Source: Octopus vulgaris
Taxonomy: Eukaryota
Assembly: GCA_951406725.2 (NCBI GenBank)
Contig: OX597824.1
Span: 8,122,001-8,186,000 of the forward strand
DNA length: 64,000 nt
Reading direction: 5' to 3'
Of this stretch, positions 7,349 to 57,381 are shown one piece after another. Numbering within the stretch: the stretch's first letter is position 1; each line of letters starts with the position of its first letter. The translations under genes were made by a program, and so were the position numbers. The notes below the pieces were generated by a model. It saw only the letters and a list, made by a program, of their open reading frames with translations. It made no database searches and had not been told where the DNA came from.

Positions 7349-8000
7349 AGGCAGGGACTTGGGAAATAATATCTTCTACTATAGCCTCAGGCTGACTAAA
7401 AGCCTTGTGAGTGGATTTGGTAGATGGAAACTGAAAGCAGCCCATTGTGTGTATGTATATATATATATGTTTGTGTGTCTGTGTTTGTCCTCCCCACCAT
7501 CGCTTGACAACTGATGTAGGTGTGTTTACATTCTCATAACTTAATGGTTCGACAAAAGAGATCGACAGAATAAGTACTAGGCTTAGAAAGAATAAGCCCT
7601 GGAGTCGATTTGTTCGACTAAATGCGGTGCTGCAGCATGGCCACAGTCAAATGACTGAAACAAGTAAAAGAATAAAAGGATATATATATAGTGCTGAAAA
7701 GTTACCCGATTTAAGGGTCTCATGAAAGGCTTGGCTGGAGGCCTAACCTTCCCAGTTCTTTTGCAGGGCTTACAGAAACTGAAGGACTGTTGCAATAAGC
7801 GTGTGAGTCTGAGAGGGGAAGATGTCGAATAAAATCCTAATTGACTGATCCTTCTGTATTTTCTTTTACCCAAAGCCAGGAACTTGCATTTCATTTCTTT
7901 AAAAGATTGATTAGTTTTCCTTTTCTGTAAGCCAAATACTAGAACACTATTGCACAATACAGCCCTCACAGAATTTAACCAACTGGCCAGGACTGCCTGA

Positions 8001-8502
8001 CTAGCTCTCGTGCATGTGGCACATAAAAAGCACCAATTGAATGTAGCCGATGCCAGGAACCCCTGACTGGCTCTTGTGCTGGTGGCACGTAAAAAGCACC
8101 ATCCAAACGTGACCGATGCCAGTACTCCCTAATTGGCCTTCATGCCGGTGGCATGTAAAAAGCACTATCCACACGTGGCCAATGCCAGGATCGCCTGGCT
8201 GGCTCATGTGCCGGTGGAATGTAAAAAAACACCATCTGAACATGGCCAATGCCAGTACCCCCTGATTGGCACATAAAAAGCACTATCCAAACGTGATCGA
8301 TGCCAGACCCGCCTGATTGGTTCCTGTGCCGGTGGCACATAAAAGCACCCACTACACACTCAGAGTGGTTGGTGTTAGGAAGGGCATCCAGCTACAGAAA
8401 CATTGCCAGATCAAGGTTGGAGCCTGGTGCAGCCACCTGGTTCGCCAGACCTCAGTCAAACCTGTCAAACCCACGCCAGCATGATGTTAAACGATGATGA
8501 TG
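8001..8502 (+). mobile_element. Family C element: about 60-bp tandem units plus an RTE-like 3' end and (GAT)n tail
   Basis: Repeated gtgccggtggcacgtaaaaagcacc units, then ggaagggcatccagct...catg...gttaaacgatgatgatg. Confidence 0.85.
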
Positions 8503-29896: not shown

Positions 29897-30000
29897 CTTT
29901 TACGTAATCGCGAGGATCTTCTTGTTCATCATCATCTGACCCAAGGATTTCTTCTTCATCTTCATACACAGGGTCACAAGACTTGTGTGTATCAGCAGAC
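29897..30000 (-). CDS. SRPK: SRPK exon: SADTHKSCDPVYEDEEEILGSDDDEQEDPRDYVK
   Basis: Acceptor ttctgtgttaaag and donor gtaact; 104 nt, phase 2 to 1. EEEILGSDDDEQEDP is conserved in SRPK1/2. Confidence 0.96.
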
Positions 30001-33150: not shown

Positions 33151-33423
33151 ATTGCGGCCCATTACACTTTTTGTGTTAAAAGGAAGATACCAGAAGCCCA
33201 GAATTCCCAGGACAGCACACTCATCATGAAGAGGAGATGATTGTACAGTTACTTGTCCTCAATATAAATCTATCGATTAGTATTTCAGTAATTCCGTCAT
33301 CATTAAAAGTAGCATCTGCTTATTAATTGGAGTTAAAAATCTTTTAGTATGAAATATCTAGAAATAGAATGCTTTTGAAAAGTGGAGAGCAAAAATGGAA
33401 ACTCTGAAATGAGGAACATTTAC

Positions 33424-33514
33424 ACGTGAACACAAAAACCCCATTTACTTGTGAGGAGTTCGCGTATTACTAGCGCTGAAATTACTGTCGACTCAACTCT
33501 TCTCTTTAAATGAT
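33424..33514 (-). CDS. Candidate internal exon: (Y)HLKRRVESTVISALVIRELLTSKWGFCVH(V)
   Basis: Very strong acceptor ttttcttctgcatctctctcttaccag. Only one frame is open. Donor GT|gtaaat gives phase 1 to 2; an alternative donor lies at 33448. Confidence 0.4.
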
Positions 33515-34508
33515 CTGGTAAGAGAGAGATGCAGAAGAAAATATGCTTTATTATTTATTCAAAGGTACTATTTCAAAAACCACTCATAGATTGCTTCACT
33601 TTTTATTTATTTTTTTTTTATCAATAGTCTATGAGGCAAGGAAAAAGAGAAGGGGTGAAGGAGGGGGAGAGAGAGAGAGACTAAGAATTAATAAAGTAGA
33701 CACAAGAATCATTCATAACTTGGTGAGAGCAAACCACTTTGATCTGTCTTTTCAGTTCCATTTTTAGAAATTACTTTCTTCTGCCTTAATAAATGATGTG
33801 AATCTGTCCAACAATTTATCACCAAACGAACAAGAAATATAGAGATGGGAGGGCAAAGAAGAGGAAACAGGAGCCAATATCTAAGCATATATAAATAGAT
33901 CATAGAAATTAATGCCAATGCCAAGACGGTAATGCAGAAGAAAACAAAAATACAGAAAGTAAAGGGGAAAAGAAAAAAAAAAAGAAAAATGTTAATTAGC
34001 CAAAAATTCAAGAAATAACGACCCTAATTCTTCTACAAAAAATATATTATTATGTAGCTTTATTAAGAAAGTGGTAACTGTGCCAGGCTATTGCTTCCCA
34101 TATTAATATCTTAAAGCAAATTATAGCTGTGTGTGTGTGTGTGTGTGTGTGTAAGATCAGAAAAGAAGAAGTTCGTTTAGTAACAACCTCCACAATGTAA
34201 TTTGGGAGGAGTGAGACATTTATTTTGGTCCACTTAAGGACTATCTTTGGGGCGGGAAGGAGAACAGAACAGACAAAACACCTCATCGAGTGAAAAATGT
34301 ATTTAAAATTGAATTTGGTGGTGGGGAGAACCCGAGATACAATTTATTTTCTCAAAATTATATTTCATGTAAAAACCACAAAAACCAACACCATTAATTT
34401 AACAAATATTCCTTTTTTTTAAAAAAAAAAAGGAAAAATCAAAGCTGAATTTATTTGCCAATAATGAATGCAAAAAGGAAAACCAACCAACAAACAAAAA
34501 AGACTAAC

Positions 34509-34518
34509 ATGATGTCAT
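34509..34518 (-). CDS. Candidate coding tip (MTS) of an alternative first exon
   Basis: ATG ACA TCA T|gttagt is phase 1 and fits the open frame of 33424-33514. A GC box (GGGCGG) lies near 34656. Confidence 0.25.
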
Positions 34519-36730
34519 AGATAATCCATACTAAGTGGTAAATATAACTTTGGTATGTCCTTCACTAAGTCCTTGTACTTGGTTGCTAACCCACACAGCA
34601 GCCAGATACAGCAATTCAATAACTGTTTATCAATGCAAGAATTGTTCATATTTCAGGGCGGGGGAGGCGAGGCAAAAAGAAAAAAATATTCCATGCTATA
34701 ATCTTCCAGCTCACTTTTCAATTAACAACAATTCTACATAAACAACACACAAACAAACACACATACACACTGGACATTTCAAAAAATCCATTACTGAGAA
34801 AATCTTTATTTCAAAATTCTCTTCCATAGCCAACTAGCCTTGGTGTGAAGCTAAAACCCCAGACCTCGATCTATAAAAACTGTTTTATATAATGCCAGAT
34901 ATCTGATCATCTCCTGCAAAAGCCATCTACAAAACTAAAGCTGCTTAGAAAAGCTAACACATAAATAGCCTCCAACTATTGACTAAACTCTCACCGTACA
35001 CTCTACACTTAGTACAATGACCCGACTCAAAGCCATCATCACTCAGTTTAAAATCCACTGCCTAGCACCATGGGCACCAGTAGCAGAGTCTTCAGGCCAG
35101 GAGCTTTGGAGAATACTTCCTTCCACTGTGAACCCCAACCCCTAATCTAGGAAGCCCTGAAGAGTCATGGTCACTGCCTTTCCTCCTGAATAAAAACTAC
35201 AATAAAACCCATTTGGTGCACTAACTTCTCCACACTTCTATTGGTACCACACTTCTCACAGTACCATGGTTTTGCTCCAATATTTCATTAGCATTTAAAC
35301 TAGCCAGATCTGGCTCACATATTCTCCCTGTTCTATGTTCAAACTGGCCATATTCAGCCTTTCACACCTACAAGCGAGGACTGGCTCCTGTGCAGGTGGC
35401 ACATAAAAAGCACCATTTGAGCGTGGCCGTTGCCAGTACCGCCTGACTGACCCTCATGCTAGTGGCACGTAAAAGCACCCACTACACTCTCAGAGTGGTT
35501 GATGTTAGGAAGGGCATCCAGCTGAAGAAACTGACAGATCAGACTGGAGCCTGGTGCAGCCATCTGGTTCGCCAGACCTCAGTCAAATCGTCCAACCCAT
35601 GCTAGCATAGAAAGCGGACGCTAAACGATGATGATTACAATGTCATACTAAAAACAAACAAGCACATCATTGAACTCCCAATGCAAAGAGATAATGCACT
35701 AGTAATTCCAAACAATACGAATAAATAACCTGAATACTAAAGGGTCACAGATGCACCACCCTCTAGTGAACCCCAGATCAGATCTCATCCAGCATTTCTA
35801 TGATTAAAAGCATTCCACTTATTACCAGGACAACATTATCTCCATGTGTTTATCTCTTTAAGACAACATGGAGCGACCTGAGAAATATCTGTTTTCTTTT
35901 TAACAGTTTCAGCAACCATGTAGAGGTTCTCTTGGCTCAAAATACACCATTACTTACTGAAATCATACAACTGATCAGATACAATTCTAAGACTTCGAAA
36001 CAAGCACAGATGTAGAACCTACTAAAATGGACAGCACAATGAAAATGTGAAAAAGATGTCCAATGATATGTAATAAACTGCAAGAGAAGCCAAACATTAT
36101 TAACACAGCAACAATTTGTAAGGGTCTGCTTGCCAAATTACTTCTTTCATCCATTTTTATCCACCTATCTACATGGCTTCTACTTTTTTTCCTCAAATTG
36201 TTTCTTTACCTATTTCTAACCATCATTAACCTATGATTATATTTAACTTAATTAACAACCATACAATCAACACAACACCTGGTATTATTATCCTCAGCAA
36301 CCCCAATGCATATATACAAAACTAAATATCCAATCATATGTACAACTCCTTTTAGAATACCTCAACAGTTATTGGTCTGCAAAGGTCCATAGTCTAGTGG
36401 TTAAGGTGTTAGATTATGATCATAAGACAGTGTGTTTGATTCCTGGATCAGGTTTGACATTGTCCTTGAGCAAGGCACTTCATTTTACGTTGCTCTGGTC
36501 TAATTTACTGAAATGCATACCAACAACCCTGTTCCCCTTTTGATGTTCCACTAACTCTGGTCCTCAACCATTTTTTATCTATGGAGCCCCTTTGATTACT
36601 ATTTTGTTCTGCTGGACCCTCAGAGCCATTCAGCGTTTAAAAGCTAGTTATATAGATACTTATTTCAAAATTCCTAATTTGGTTCCCACACATTCACTCA
36701 TATAGGTTTGCCAGAAACATGTTAAACTAA

Positions 36731-37169
36731 GGCGGCAAGCTGGCAGAAACGTTTAACACAGCAGGTGAAATGCTTAGCAGCACTTCGTCGGTTTTTATGT
36801 TCTGAGTTCAAATTCCACTCAGGTCGACTTTGCTTTCATCTTTTTGGGGGTCGATAAATTAAGTACCAGTTGCATACTGGGGTCGATCTAATTGACTAGC
36901 TCCTTCTCCAATATATTTTGGGCTTTGTGCCATGAGTAGAAAAGGTTATTAAAGGTGGTGAGCTGGCAGAAACGTTAGCACACCAGGTGAAATGTTTAGC
37001 GCCATTTTGTCTGCCTTTACGTTCTGAGTTCAAATTCCACTGAGGTTAACTTTGCCTTTCATCCTTTGAAGGTCAATAAATTAAGTACCAGTTGTATACT
37101 GGGGTCAATCTAATCGACTGGCCCCCTCCACCCCCACCAAATTTCAGACCTTGTGCCTATAGTAGAAAC
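36731..37169 (+). mobile_element. Head-to-tail dimer of SINE family B within one TSD
   Basis: Units at 36731-36946 and 36953-37169. TSD gaaaca(t/c)gttaaacta at 36714-36729 and 37170-37185. Confidence 0.85.
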
Positions 37170-37775
37170 GAAACACGTTAAACTACGTGAAACACCAGAG
37201 AAAGAAATCTAGCCATTTCTTGCAATAACTACATCCAAAACAACAGACCCTTAAAATACTCATGCATCCTAAAAAATTTTATAGGCCCTAATTAAGAAGC
37301 AACACCTAAAACAATGAACAAAAGCATGGCACATGTTACCAAATAACATGTGCTAGTGAGTGACAACTATGGTTTATATTCTTCATACTTTAATAATTAT
37401 CAGCAAAACATCTGCAACATATACATAATTTTATTTTTCAAACAATCTAGAGTAAAAGTAAGCCCCAATCCAACCAGCTGCTCACCCACTCCTTGTGTCT
37501 GCCATATTCAATTGCCATGAACTCTTTTATGTAAGAAAGATAACAAAATTAATCCTGAGGCTAAATATATAATCTCTTTAACTCCACTGTTGATATATAT
37601 ACATAGCTAACAAATTTTGAGAAATTAAGAATTTGCTTGAATAATCATTATTATGCTTGTGTCTGAAACATTACCAGGAAATTTTGATGGAAGGTTTTAG
37701 CTTAGATTCTTTTCAAACATGTTTCTATCATAGAATTAAGGACAGTCTTGGGCAGGTTGGTATGTATCAAAAGGT

Positions 37776-38004
37776 TTAACCCTTTCGTTACCGTATTTCT
37801 GTTGAGATGCTCTGTGTTTCCTTCAATTAATTTTAAATATAACAAAGAATTTAATAAAATAACTTGGTTATCATTAAGCTAGTGTTAGGAACGTAAATTG
37901 TGACTAAAGTTTGGTGGAAGATTTTAATTCAGAACTTATGAAAACAAGACATTATACCACAGAACCAGAGCCGGGTTTGGCCGGGTTAGTAACAAAAGGG
38001 TTAA
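37776..38004 (+). mobile_element. TTAA-flanked (piggyBac-like) MITE, family 1
   Basis: TTAA-CCCTTTCGTTAC...GTAACAAAAGGG-TTAA. Homologous copies at 63013-63240 (reverse) and 63912-64000. Confidence 0.85.
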
Positions 38005-38959
38005 AACCCTAATAAGCTGTGTGTGTGTGAGTGAGAGACAGACAGACAGAGCATGTTCATACATGTTCCATAATTTTACCAAACATAAAGGGATCTTAAC
38101 AAATTTATCTAAAGACTATAATTCAAAGGAACAATCCAAAAAAGATTAAAACACTATCTGAAAGCTATTTCTGCACTTGAAATATTTATTACGATGTATA
38201 TATTTTTTTTTTTTTCAAAAAATAACCCAAAATCAACAGCCAATTTGAGTAAATTCAGCTTCCATGCGAAATTCACAAATAATACTTGGTTCCTGAGAGG
38301 TTTTTCTTTTCTTTCTTTTCTTTTTTTTGTAATTTCAGTTTGATATGCTGCTACATACAAGATTAATATGAAATATTTTTATCTCTTGCTTAGAAACTAT
38401 TGGGAAAGAAACGTACTATCTCAAATGCCAGCCAACAAGAACAAACAGATAGAAATGAATATTTACAGGAAAGGATTTAAAATAATAATAATTATATATA
38501 AATATATGTATCTGGCAATTGCACATGCTAAAACCCATGCGAGAATGGAAAAACAAATTTGAAAAAATTGAAGAGTTCCGAGTGATAACAAAATAGGAAA
38601 AAATGGGAAAAAGAAAAACCAGAGAAGTGGCAACCAAGTTGGATCAACAGAAACCTGATTCCCATAGAACAGAGAATGACTTAACTAATTTAGAAGAAAT
38701 GTTGTTAGATATTTATTTCTTTATTGCCCACAGGCGGCTAAACATAGAGGGAACAAACAGGGATAAAGGGTTTAAGTCGATTGCATCGGCCCCAGTGCAT
38801 AACTGGTACTTATTTAATCGACCCCAAAAAGATGGAAGGAAAAGTCGACCTCAGCTGAATTTGAACTCAGAACCTAACGGCAGACAAAATACCACTAAGC
38901 ATTTCACCCAGTGTGCTAACAATTCTGCAACTCACCGCCCTGACTGTTGTTAAATATTA

Positions 38960-39135
38960 AGGTGCAAGAGTGGCTGTGTGGTAAGTAGTTTGCTTACCAA
39001 CCACATGGTTCCGGGTTCAGTCCCACTGCGTGTCACCTTGGGCAAGTGTCTTTTACTATAGCCTTGGGCTGACCAAAGCATTTAAGTGAATTTGGGAGAC
39101 AGAAACTGAAAGAAGCCTGTTGTGTGTGTGTGTGT

Positions 39136-39200
<65 letters not shown>

Positions 39201-39405
39201 TGTTTGTGTATCTGTGTTTGTCCCCCCAACATTGTTTGACAGCTGATGTTGGTGTGTTTACGTCCCTGTAACTCAGTGGTTTGGCAAAAGAGACCGACAG
39301 AATAAGTACTAGGCTTACAAAGAATAAGCCCTGTGGTCAATTTGTTCGACTAAAAGCAGTGCTCCAGTATGGCCACAGTCAAATGACTTGAAACATATAA
39401 AAGAA
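38960..39405 (+). mobile_element. SINE family A copy
   Basis: Head, body and tail as in 3808-4210. Confidence 0.9.
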
Positions 39406-39803
39406 TTCTAAATCAATGTCAATGCCCTTATACAGATATCTCAAAATAGCAGTTTCTCGTACAAAGCAAAAATAAGAGAGACATTAAGAGTGAGGGAGGA
39501 TGAAAGTCAAAATAATTAAAGGATTATCTTTTGAAGCATAATCAACAGTGATTAGAGATAAATGGAAATAACATGAGGAGGAGGAAGGGGTGAGGCTAAG
39601 CAAGGAAGAAACCTTGAAGTTATTTTCCAAAATTATTTCAATCTTAGTTTTAGGTTTATCAATAAGGAGTCCAATGTTATTTTGACGGGACTTTAAGGAG
39701 AGCAGGCAACATTCACTTACAGCATTCAACCAGTTGAATAAGCAGTTAAAGTCCCAATCGATACAAATTTTATAATACTGCACAATAAATTTAGACTGTA
39801 GGG

Positions 39804-40247
39804 TTAGACAACCAACTGGTACCCTGGTACCATATGTGTGTCTGTTTCTAAACAAAACTGCAATAAAACATCAAGTTCTTTTTTGGGAGCGAAGGGCTTT
39901 TGGATTACCAGAAGGATATTGTCTTGATGTGTATTTGAATGATCTGCAGCTGTTCCACATTCACAGACATCCTGGACTGCATCCAGAAAAGGGCCGCCTG
40001 ACTGACTGGCATGAAGCCACTCCATCATCTTCTGGTTCATAAGTGTGCTGTATCCTCTCTCTGCCTTTTCATCTACTACAACAATGGCCCCAGCTTCTCG
40101 GAGCCAGCTGGGCTCATCTTCCCGTCTCCACTCGGGCACTTCCTTCCCGCTCATCTTCCCGTCTCCTAGCAACCTAGTGGCATCCCGATATCCCAGTCCT
40201 TTCTCCACCGAAAGTTTAAGTCTATCTGGGATTCCTTCCTCGCTCAT
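39804..40247 (-). CDS. 147-aa non-repetitive ORF of unknown function (MSEEGIPDRLK...)
   Basis: Longest ATG-initiated ORF in the track that is not repeat-derived. Same strand as SRPK, GC-richer than its flanks, protein-like composition. No family recognised. Confidence 0.35.
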   Translation of the reverse strand: MSEEGIPDRLKLSVEKGLGYRDATRLLGDGKMSGKEVPEWRREDEPSWLREAGAIVVVDEKAERGYSTLMNQKMMEWLHASQSGGPFLDAVQDVCECGTAADHSNTHQDNILLVIQKPFAPKKELDVLLQFCLETDTHMVPGYQLVV

Positions 40248-40313
40248 GTCACCCCCACATGTGTTTCGACTTTACAAAGATTCGAGAGGAACATTAAACG
40301 GTGAAAATCTTAC

Positions 40314-40352
40314 TGGTCTGAGACGGCCAGAAACGGCCGTGGACACTGCTTC
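40314..40352 (-). CDS. Candidate 39-nt cassette exon (W)KQCPRPFLAVSD(Q), or first exon from the ATG at 40357
   Basis: CTCAC plus a long pyrimidine tract, first AG at 40354-40353, donor CCA|gtaaga. Phase 2 to 2, in frame. Confidence 0.45.
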
Positions 40353-42089
40353 CTCATCCAGATCCAGGAAGTAAAGAGAAGAACCAAAAGAACAGAAAAC
40401 AAAAAGTGAGCTAGAATTAAAGCACAACAATGCACTACTATCATCTTCGTACAATAAACTTCACCAAGGAAATCCAAAACAATTGAAGATTTACCTAATA
40501 TAATAATACCCCTAACAACTTAAGCATAGATAATCTTTAAACTGCTATAATAAAACCTGCTAATACCTTTGACTTATGTTAATAGGCTGGATATGGATAT
40601 ATTTTATAACAAGCCAATACCCAAGAGTCACAGCTACTTTCTTTTTTTTTTTGTCCTTTTAATTTTTTTTAACACAGAAAACAGAAATAATTAGTAATAC
40701 TGCATATGAAACTGTCAGAGCTTTAGTTACGCTAATCAAAGCTAACTTTAATTTTTATATTACATTAATTAATTCCTGGGACAAGTGGCTGATATACCAC
40801 GTGGTAATATATTAATCAACAAAGAGAGGAGGGAATTCTCGTTGCATTGGTAATGCACAGAGTCAGTGACACAAAAACACGATAAGCACCAGCAATGGTT
40901 CTTTGGATCGGAGACATTTTCAAGGAATGCAAATACACTCAGCCTGACAAGAATTCATTTGGAGGCTTTAGTCATAAAAACAAAACAAAAAAAGCACAGG
41001 GATGGCTGTGTGGTAAGAAGTTTGCTTCTCAACCACATGGTTCCCAAGTTCAGTCCCACTGTGTGACACCTTGGGCAAGCATCTTCAACTATAGAATCGG
41101 GCAAACCTTGTGATTGGATTTCGTAAATAGGAACTGAAAGAAGACCATTGCACACACGTTTCTTTGTGCCCATGTTTGTCTCCCATCATCCCTCGACAAC
41201 TGGTGTCGGTGTCTTTACATCCCCATAACTTAGCAGCTTGGCAAAAGAGGGCAATGAACTAAGTACCAGGCTAAGTACTGGGGCTGACTCATTCAACTAG
41301 AATTCCTCAAGGTAGTGCTCCAACATGGCCAGTTTCATAATGACCAAAAAAAGTAAAAGATACAACCATAAAGAAATAAAACCTTAATATAATTATTTCA
41401 AATTTTTGCCACAAGGGCAGCTTGAGGGAGGTGGGGATGAGTCAACTACACTGACCCCAGTGTTCAACTGGTACTTATTTTATTGACAGGCAAAGTCGAC
41501 CTCGGCAGGATTTGAACTCAGAACGGAGCGACAAGTAAAATACCACTAAGCATTTCCTCCAGCATGCTAATGATTCTGCCAGCTCACCACCAAAACTTTA
41601 TATAATAGTAACTAGTACTTTATTTTATTGACCTCAAAAGGACAAAAAGCAATGTTGAGCTCAGGCAGGATTTGAACTCAGAATTTAAAAAGCTACAAAA
41701 AATACCACAAAACTTTTTATCCAATGCTCTAATGTTTCCGCCAATCCACTGCCCTCGTTATAATTGCTTCTAATTTAGGCAAATAACAATATTTTTTTTA
41801 AGGAAGCGGATTGAATTAGTAGATTACATCGACCCCCCTCCCCAGGTCTAAACCAGTATTTCATTTTATAACAGAAAGAATTGGAACTGCAATCAACATC
41901 AACACTAATAACCATCAATAAATGACAGCAAAATATGATTTTAATATTTCTTCTAAGCTGCTTAACCAAACTTTAAAACTTAAAATTTATACACAAAATT
42001 GCAGATGGATTTAGTGGAACTGGTACAAACGTAATACTAACCTCAGACAAATTTAAAACAGAAAAAAAAATAAAAGAAAATTTGAATAC

Positions 42090-42190
42090 CTGAATTTATA
42101 ATTATAGGAACGACTCCGCTTATCTTTTTGTAGTAGCAATTTTCTTAGCTTTGCAAGTAAGATAACACGACCGTAATACACCATCGACAT
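42090..42190 (-). CDS. Candidate alternative first coding exon: MSMVYYGRVILLAKLRKLLLQKDKRSRSYNYKF(R)
   Basis: ATG-initiated open frame ending CAG|gtattc in phase 2, in frame with exon 29897-30000. Unique sequence with several CpGs. Confidence 0.45.
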
Positions 42191-53066: not shown

Positions 53067-53750
53067 TCATCATCATCATCTTTTAGCGTCCGTTCTCCAT
53101 GCTAGCATGGGTTGGACGGTTCAACTGGGGTCTGTGAAGCTGGAAGGCTTCATCAGGCCCAGTCAGATCTGGCAGTGTTTCTACGGCTGGATGCCCTTCC
53201 TAACGCCAACCACTCCGTGAGTGTAGTGGGTGCTTTTTACGTGCCACCCGCACAGGTGCCAGACAGAGCTGGCAAACGGCCACGAACGGATGGTGCTTTT
53301 ACGTGTCACCGGCACGGGGGCCAGGCGAGGCTGGCAACGGACACGAACAGATGATGCTTTTACGTGCCACCAACACGGGGGCCAGACAGAGCTGGCAAAC
53401 GGCCACGAAACGGATGGTGCTTTTACGTGTCACCGGCACGGGGGCCAGGCGAGGCTGGCAACAGACACGAACGGATGGTGCTTTTACATGCCACCACAAG
53501 GGGGCCAGACAGGGCTGGCAAACGGCCACGAACGGATGGTGCTTTTACATGTCACTGGCATGGGGGCCAGACAGAGCTGGCAAACGGCCACGAACGGATA
53601 GTGCTTTTACGTGTCACCGGCACGGGGGCCAGGCTGGCAACAAACACGAACGGATGGTGCTTTTACGTGCCACCGACACGGGGGCCAGACAGGGCTGGCA
53701 AACGGTCACAAACGGATGGTGCTTTTACGTGTCACCTGCACAGGGGCCCT
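53067..53750 (-). mobile_element. Family C copy with an expanded internal array; others at 1436, 21995, 28635, 35378
   Basis: 8 full units and 1 partial unit of about 56-63 bp at 53229-53745. Confidence 0.88.
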
Positions 53751-57318: not shown

Positions 57319-57381
57319 CAATCAGTGCCACTAGAGGACTCTGTTCCACTGCTAGAATCATGATGCTTAGCTTGTTTTCTC
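57319..57381 (-). CDS. SRPK: Probable upstream SRPK N-terminal exon: RKQAKHHDSSSGTESSSGTD(W)
   Basis: Strong acceptor (ttctcgttgactctccag) and consensus donor (TG|gtaagt). 63 nt, phase 2 to 2, open, and joins exon 29897-30000 in frame. No homology check possible. Confidence 0.78.

What the first reader, a model, noticed from the sequence alone, without database searches (positions are those of the whole stretch)
33424..42190. Cluster of candidate alternative N-termini in the 27-kb SRPK intron, all rejoining the kinase frame
Seen: between exons 57319-57381 and 29897-30000, four non-repetitive islands carry donors that end in phase 2, which exon 29897-30000 requires. They are 42090-42190 (MSMVYY...), 40314-40357 (MRKQCPRP...), 39721-39725 (ML) and 34509-34518 plus 33424-33514 (MTSYHLKRR...). 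Established: SRPK N-termini are alternatively encoded in other animals and affect localisation. Inference: a multi-promoter cassette swapping short targeting peptides onto one kinase. Caveat: each phase match has a 1-in-3 chance and GTAA donors are common in AT-rich DNA.
Basis: partly seen in the sequence, partly recalled or inferred. Interest (0 to 1): 0.72.

Follow-up and report, generated by a model that had tools for sequence, protein, structure and literature searches.

The report
Octopus SRPK alternative first exons
Two of the four proposed hidden start exons in this octopus splicing-kinase gene match isoforms already predicted in public octopus annotations, and one of them lies in an old LINE retrotransposon read backwards; the gene likely uses many alternative promoters, as a fly SRPK gene does, and the other two candidates are probably chance.

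Summary
Partly right, and mostly already in databases. The window holds part of an Octopus SRPK gene on the minus strand. All four islands exist and end in phase 2, but 104 phase-2 sites in this intron score as well, so phase proves little. Island 42090-42190 (MSMVYY...) equals the head of RefSeq O. sinensis isoform X8 (34/34 aa) and O. bimaculoides X6 (32/34). Island 40314-40357 (MRKQC...) matches O. bimaculoides X4 (12/15). The ML and MTSY candidates appear in 0 of 32 Octopus SRPK proteins. Two corrections: (1) island 40314 is repetitive; it is the antisense 3' end of a decayed LINE, with 8 other copies at 70-77% identity. (2) Exon 57319-57381 is a skippable cassette. The canonical start and five more annotated heads lie 7-104 kb beyond the window. 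Alternative promoters giving differently localised N-termini are published for Drosophila Srpk79D, and this scan noted the same layout in an arthropod (e1-7595386). Promoters, expression and targeting of the islands were not shown here.

The parts
42090..42190 (-). Coding part of an alternative first exon (island 1), MSMVYYGRVILLAKLRKLLLQKDKRSRSYNYKF(R); net charge +9; phase-2 donor CAG|GTATTC; first in-frame ATG after an upstream stop
   Evidence: 34/34 aa to O. sinensis XP_036362905.1 (X8) and 32/34 to O. bimaculoides XP_014776642.1 (X6) and UniRef A0A0L8GZZ9. No other genomic copy of the exon found. Charge.
40314..40357 (-). Coding part of an alternative first exon (island 2), MRKQCPRPFLAVSD(Q); donor CCA|GTAAGA; the frame is open upstream to an ATG at 40444 (29 extra hydrophobic codons)
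   Evidence: 12/15 aa to O. bimaculoides XP_014776641.1. One contig of run X7 covers 40312-40498 at depth 2.6. Upstream ATG.
39932..40405 (+). Decayed, 5'-truncated LINE remnant lying antisense to SRPK: RT C-terminal region, ORF2-like stop at about 40302-40304, then a 3' UTR that holds island 2's ATG and donor on the opposite strand
   Evidence: 39 other matches among 40 scored; 8 other copies of 40224-40405 at 70-77%; copies L044, L046 and L054 hold both parts; 149 of 150 scored family hits. The related copy L067 has RT fragments that hit LINE-1 ORF2p in the PDB (E 3e-6) and an IYADD motif.
57319..57381 (-). 63-nt in-frame cassette exon (RKQAKHHDSSSGTESSSGTDW), included or skipped after the upstream first exons
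   Evidence: Isoform pairs with and without it. Contigs of X11 and X18 join it to 30000; a contig of X7 joins the canonical exon directly to 30000.
29897..30000 (-). First common exon (SADTHK...EEEILGSDDDEQEDPRDYVK); acceptor shared by all heads
   Evidence: covered by one long contig in each of the 7 runs laid.
39721..39725 (-). Proposed 'ML' exon: not supported, probably a chance ATG next to GTAAGT
   Evidence: 0 of 32 proteins; background counts.
33424..34518 (-). Proposed two-piece MTSYHLKRR exon pair (34509-34518 + 33424-33514): not supported as coding. The 33514 acceptor is a good polypyrimidine/CAG site.
   Evidence: 0 of 32 proteins. Contigs of X3 (33453-33603) and X11 (33285-33948) run unspliced across the proposed splice sites. 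Acceptor context.

Best explanation
This is a single Octopus SRPK gene whose annotated isoforms carry many unrelated short heads on one kinase, and two of those heads (42090-42190 and 40314-40357) are encoded in the 27-kb intron and are likely alternative first exons, transcribed from their own promoters and spliced straight to the acceptor at 30000. Shown: both heads start predicted RefSeq proteins of sister species, fit phase 2, and never carry the 63-nt cassette (4 of 4 proteins), as their position downstream of it requires. Shown: island 2's ATG, codons and donor lie in the antisense strand of a LINE 3' end. Inferred: both are minor, tissue-restricted starts. Inferred: island 1 is a mildly constrained basic head that replaces the basic canonical head (+9 against +12) and may change where the kinase sits, as in fly Srpk79D. 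Inferred: island 2 arose by exonisation before the split from O. bimaculoides (about 34 Myr, PMC10700109) and is under little protein-level constraint. The ML and MTSY candidates are probably chance.
For:: island 1 in three database proteins from two species (34/34, 32/34, 32/34) and island 2 in one (12/15), each joined exactly at SADTHK; heads mapped upstream of 57381 occur with and without the cassette, while the island heads occur only without it; six further annotated starts map at window-equivalent 71145, 79589/79540, 100878, 111626, 155989 and 168036; an X7 contig covers 40312-40498 and its alignment stops two bases past the donor, where GT is shared by intron and next exon, with 2 letters left unaligned; this is suggestive, not a bridged junction. 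LINE origin of island 2; the GTAAG/GTGAG donor motif is also present in copies L055 and L046, and the ATG in L045. Drosophila precedent.
Against: The isoforms are automatic predictions ('PREDICTED', XP_ accessions) and I could not see their read support or 5' UTRs, so the islands could be internal exons behind untranslated exons. Neither head appeared in the Argonauta, Sepia or Logan-derived cephalopod proteins retrieved, whereas the canonical head is 31-32/32 conserved in those that carry it. The islands together diverge more than the spacer (44/49 against 147/149, P = 0.011). Island 1's two changes are compatible with neutrality unless neutral divergence is near 0.1 per site (assumed rates). 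Island 1's hydrophobic moment (0.46) is no higher than the canonical head's (0.48). The contigs whose junctions were shown use 57319 to 30000 or the canonical exon to 30000.
Confidence: 0.72

Rival explanations
1. The two annotated islands are transcriptional or splicing noise: rare cryptic starts in a long, highly transcribed intron, picked up by automatic annotation, with no selected protein function.
For: Island 2 is LINE-derived, has 3 changes in 15 aa, and its ATG and donor motifs also occur in other copies of the repeat. Another annotated head (MFHM...) reads in different frames in the two species, so the annotation does include unconstrained heads. Neutrality cannot be rejected.
Against: Island 1 was annotated in two species about 34 Myr apart with ATG, frame and junction intact and 32/34 identity. 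It is also the first exon of a separate O. bimaculoides UniRef model (P0030).
Confidence: 0.2
2. One reading: four functional intronic promoters swap four targeting peptides onto the kinase.
For: All four fit phase 2. The 33514 acceptor is one of only 3 strong-acceptor, open-frame, phase-2-out exons in the intron. Two of the 17 members of the O. sinensis cluster could not be listed.
Against: 0 of 32 proteins carry ML or MTSY/HLKRR. 104 sites score as well as these donors. Contigs of X3 and X11 cross the 33514 acceptor unspliced and the X11 contig also crosses the 33424 donor, though these may be pre-mRNA or DNA. A two-residue head cannot be a targeting peptide.
Confidence: 0.05
3. The islands are internal exons reached from further upstream untranslated exons, so there is no promoter inside this intron.
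For: 5' UTRs were not visible. A pyrimidine-rich stretch and an AG lie just upstream of island 2's ATG.
Against: No retrieved protein joins an upstream head to either island. The X7 contig runs contiguously with the genome from the donor to 40498.
Confidence: 0.08

Closest known systems
Drosophila Srpk79D isoforms PB/PE and PC/PF (PMC2759580; abstract and passages read)
   Same: One SRPK gene, alternative promoters, non-overlapping N-terminal parts on the same kinase. In the fly, overexpressed PC/PF go to active zones and PB to spots in the cell body.
   Different: The fly has two starts with tested localisation. Octopus has at least eight annotated heads of 1-37 aa, none tested, plus a skippable cassette exon. 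No sequence relation to the fly heads was tested.
RefSeq predicted isoforms of Octopus SRPK: O. sinensis XP_036362905.1 (X8), O. bimaculoides XP_014776642.1 (X6) and XP_014776641.1 (X4)
   Same: The same exons, junction and peptides as islands 42190 and 40357.
   Different: They are automatic models. Their names say nothing about a LINE origin, and the only protein listed under O. vulgaris (CAI9729666.1) has the MMDTG head.
Exonisation of antisense retrotransposon fragments (general concept recalled; reviews seen only as a search listing)
   Same: A fixed intronic element, antisense to the host gene, supplies a splice donor and coding sequence of a minor isoform.
   Different: Here it is a LINE 3' end that forms a first coding exon, including the ATG, in a mollusc. 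The clade of the LINE was not determined.

Membership tests
SRPK kinases | Protein kinase domain split in two by a long spacer insert | tested here: met
   Pfam Pkinase in 2 stretches, E 5e-39; spacer of about 250 aa; RefSeq names; the feature is described in PMC10952393.
Alternative-promoter N-terminal isoforms (Srpk79D type) | Mutually exclusive, unrelated 5' coding exons joined in frame to one common exon | tested here: met
   Island 1 is not detectably related to the canonical head (shuffle P 0.31). The evidence is database predictions.
Alternative-promoter N-terminal isoforms (Srpk79D type) | Splice junction from each island to the common exon seen in RNA | tested here: inconclusive
   Only assembled contigs were available. 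One X7 contig ends at island 2's donor but does not bridge the junction.
Alternative-promoter N-terminal isoforms (Srpk79D type) | A separate transcription start for each first exon | not testable with these tools
   Contigs cannot show starts; no CAGE data or raw reads were offered.
Alternative-promoter N-terminal isoforms (Srpk79D type) | The heads direct different subcellular localisation | not testable with these tools
   Only charge and hydrophobic moment were computed.
LINE (non-LTR retrotransposon) remnant | Dispersed, decayed, multi-copy sequence | tested here: met
   most matches contain stops.
LINE (non-LTR retrotransposon) remnant | Homology to LINE ORF2 reverse transcriptase | tested here: met
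   Indirect chain: window remnant to L025/L061 at 74% nt; L025 peptide to L067 at 42%, E 8e-15; L067's upstream fragment to LINE-1 ORF2p at E 3e-6, with IYADD. Pfam found nothing in the fragments.
LINE (non-LTR retrotransposon) remnant | Target-site duplication, 3' tail, clade assignment | not tested
   The copies are about 25-30% diverged; not examined.
Exonised transposable element | Exon sequence and splice site lie within the element | tested here: met
   40314-40357 and the donor align inside the repeat in L044, L045, L046 and L054, and from 40349 in L055.

The most novel reading that the evidence does not exclude
Octopuses have built a private set of SRPK address tags. The antisense 3' end of a LINE gave the gene a promoter, start codon and donor in one step and has been kept for over 30 Myr, possibly with a 29-residue hydrophobic leader from ATG 40444. 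The basic 34-residue island-1 head, which holds an RSRS motif, sends the kinase to a distinct neuronal compartment such as the presynapse. This would be a convergent, expanded version of fly Srpk79D targeting.
Probability: 0.12. Interest if true: 0.55.

Novelty: new member of a known kind. Interest (0 to 1): 0.27.

Why it matters
Modest. The design (alternative promoters giving SRPK different heads) is published in Drosophila, and both real islands are already in RefSeq for sister species. What is added: two intronic first exons are pinned to this genome, two candidates are set aside, and one head is shown to be a LINE read backwards. If that isoform is translated and localised differently, it is a datable case of a transposon creating a kinase isoform in the octopus lineage, and the heads give a short list for testing whether SRPK's presynaptic role is targeted the same way in cephalopods.

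Tried and rejected
RNA search: no RNA holder listed on record. 20 of 23 rows hold the 3' UTR query, and the RNA label is only a guess for some. I laid 7 distinct runs from 5 studies (X7 twice), all assembled contigs. At 93% likeness the joint and loose-end tables were swamped by repeats and cut. At 99% the joint table had 2 rows, both between repeats, with no joint from any island to 30000 in X7, X11, X8 or X18, and no listed piece over 42090-42190 (piece and loose-end tables cut). Contigs drop rare variants, so this is not evidence of absence. The 34-aa island-1 peptide found 0 hits among 1.84 billion representatives; this says little, because isoforms collapse into SRPK clusters. A decapod-centred search returned 15 proteins, with neither island head outside Octopus. 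The 155-aa minus-strand frame at 39807-40271 was considered as a nested gene and rejected: it has no Pfam match and is the opposite strand of the LINE remnant. Duplication of the canonical head as the origin of island 1 was not supported. A mitochondrial-presequence reading of island 1 was considered; charge and moment do not separate it from the canonical head and no predictor was available. Paper searches 'SRPK'+'octopus' (4 papers), 'SRPK'+'cephalopod' (1) and a five-term octopus/long-read/novel-exon search (0) listed nothing on this gene by title or abstract start; I did not open those papers, and subscription journals and supplements were not searched. Two of 17 O. sinensis cluster members stayed hidden. 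No other cephalopod genome was available, so intron conservation against flanks was not tested.
Full report
Setting. The window is G000:C11:8122001-8186000. Its minus strand carries the 5' half of an SRPK gene; the spacer, C-lobe and last exon lie in the next 20 kb. A spacer-exon query returned 5 proteins, led by 'SRSF protein kinase 3 isoform X7 [Octopus sinensis]', so the organism is an Octopus close to O. sinensis. Pfam gives a kinase domain in two stretches.

Observation. All stated coordinates, peptides and phases check out. Phase alone is weak. The 27,318-nt intron has 104 phase-2 GT sites with an open upstream ATG and at least 4 of 7 consensus matches (79 in phase 0, 63 in phase 1). Of 16 GTAAG sites, 4 have an open ATG in phase 2. 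The 7-position consensus is recalled, not trained.

Database evidence. I collected 32 Octopus SRPK proteins: 16 O. sinensis (one shared with O. vulgaris) and 16 O. bimaculoides. Two more members of the O. sinensis cluster could not be listed. Three begin with island 42090-42190: XP_036362905.1 (34/34 aa), XP_014776642.1 and UniRef A0A0L8GZZ9 (32/34). One begins with island 40314-40357: XP_014776641.1, MRKQCPRSFQAISDQ (12/15). All four join SADTHK directly. None of the 32 has the ML or MTSY/HLKRR head. These are automatic predictions whose read support I could not see.

True extent of the system. The other annotated heads map beyond the window, in window-equivalent coordinates: MAVF...EISM 71145-71042, MFHM/MPFPSSK 79589/79540, MQPESFRNR 100878, MLACK 111626, MMDTG 155989, and the canonical MSSKIPRK at 168036 with its second exon ending at 164699. 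Two O. bimaculoides heads (MKPLVNIV..., MVFFLEAG...) did not map by exact motif. The EISM, MQPESFRNR, MMDTG and canonical heads occur both with and without the 63-nt exon 57319-57381, which is therefore a cassette; the two island heads occur only without it. RNA-like contigs agree: X11 and X18 join 57319 to 30000, and X7 joins 164699 directly to 30000.

Contig evidence on the islands. One X7 contig (189 nt, depth 2.6) covers 40312-40498. Its alignment stops two bases past island 2's donor, where GT is shared by the intron and the next exon, and 2 letters are left unaligned. This fits splicing but does not bridge the junction, and other intronic contigs of similar depth exist (8 listed for X11). 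Contigs of X3 (33453-33603) and X11 (33285-33948) pass unspliced through the proposed 33514 acceptor, and the X11 contig also through the 33424 donor. They may be pre-mRNA or DNA, so they count only weakly against that exon. The blanks are given under Tried and rejected.

Island 2 is a LINE read backwards. Window 40224-40405 matches 8 other places in G000 at 70-77%, and 39932-40156 matches a large decayed family (149 of 150 scored candidates). Copies L044, L046 and L054 hold both parts. On the + strand the remnant reads DILDCIQKRAA...HKCAVSSLCLFIYYNNG...LQRFERNIKR, stopping at about 40302-40304. It is 74% identical to L025/L061, whose peptide is 42% identical to an open frame in L067 (E 8e-15). 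L067's upstream fragment hits LINE-1 ORF2p structures (E 3e-6; Atlas neighbours 0.96-0.97, one cluster with RVT_1 on 12% of members), and an IYADD motif lies between the two fragments. Pfam scored none of the fragments, and L067 may be a related family rather than the same one. Island 2's ATG, codons and donor therefore lie in the antisense 3' UTR. GTAAG/GTGAG at the donor position recurs in L055 and L046, and the ATG in L045, so the signals probably came with the element. The + strand of 40295-40385 folds better than shuffles (z -2.6), which fits a LINE 3' stem-loop (recalled concept). Because O. bimaculoides has the same head, the insertion predates a split dated to about 34 Mya (PMC10700109, passages read). 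Island 1 and the 33330-34800 region gave no exon-overlapping repeat hits; that search skips very common words.

Constraint. Between O. sinensis and O. bimaculoides the canonical head is 32/32, the EISM head 35/35, MQPESFRNR 9/9 and the aligned spacer 147/149. Island 1 is 32/34 (P = 0.16 against the spacer) and island 2 is 12/15 (P = 0.006). With assumed neutral divergences of 0.03-0.10, island 1's two changes have P = 0.61-0.017 and island 2 looks neutral throughout; no neutral rate was measured. Neither head appeared in the Argonauta, Sepia or Logan-derived cephalopod proteins retrieved.

Mechanism. Shown: exon identity, phase, junctions in predicted proteins, cassette skipping, and LINE overlap. 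Inferred: intronic promoters, minor tissue-restricted use, and altered localisation. Island 1 is basic like the canonical head (+9 against +12; moments 0.46 and 0.48) but unrelated to it in sequence (P 0.31).

Comparison. Drosophila Srpk79D has two transcription starts whose N-termini carry targeting information (PMC2759580, abstract and passages). The SRPK review PMC10952393 (passages) describes the spacer and the neuronal role. Searches for SRPK with octopus or cephalopod listed no paper on this gene (listings only).

Verdict. A real but ordinary multi-start SRPK gene. Two of four islands are supported and already annotated in sister species, two are probably chance, and the one new detail is the LINE origin of a kinase N-terminus. 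Interest 0.27.

Noticed in passing
window 40444-40358 (-): The island-2 frame is open upstream to an ATG at 40444 with A at -3, which would add 29 hydrophobic residues (MIVVHCCALILAHFLFSVLLVLLFTSWIW). The X7 contig includes it. The hydrophobicity may simply reflect a T-rich tract. The O. bimaculoides isoform's rank number sits among longer isoforms (574-593 aa) although it is 555 aa, a faint hint of a longer open frame (numbering convention recalled).
   Followed up: partly
window 34509 (-): The donor CAT|GTTAGT spliced straight to 30000 would create AT|G and the protein MSADTHK, which three O. sinensis models encode (P0018). An X11 contig covers 34519-34895 (depth 6) and stops 10 nt short of the donor. 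An upstream exon ending in AT explains P0018 equally well (compare P0041).
   Followed up: partly
window 33424-33514 (-): Strong acceptor (17/20 pyrimidines, CAG). If included after the 57319 exon it would make an immediate TGA, so it could be a poison exon rather than a coding one. No splicing was seen in the contigs.
   Followed up: partly
L013 (G000:C11 about 8201520-8201590): One exon gives two annotated heads in different frames through donors 4 nt apart (MFHM..., MPFPSSK), and O. bimaculoides reads part of it in another frame: an apparently unconstrained first exon.
   Followed up: no
L003 5700-5880: Just past the SRPK 3' UTR the + strand appears to carry the last exon of a convergent neighbouring gene (an exon-like stretch with an acceptor-like boundary, seen by eye).
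   Followed up: no
P0030 and the O. bimaculoides RefSeq proteins: The UniRef model P0030 has 141 residues of repeat-like sequence inserted in the kinase N-lobe and lacks about 100 spacer residues, and the O. bimaculoides RefSeq isoforms are about 100 aa shorter than their O. sinensis counterparts. Probably assembly or annotation artefacts.
   Followed up: no
window 53229-53748 and 7986-8270: Intronic tandem arrays with periods of about 62 and 66 nt and related units.
   Followed up: no
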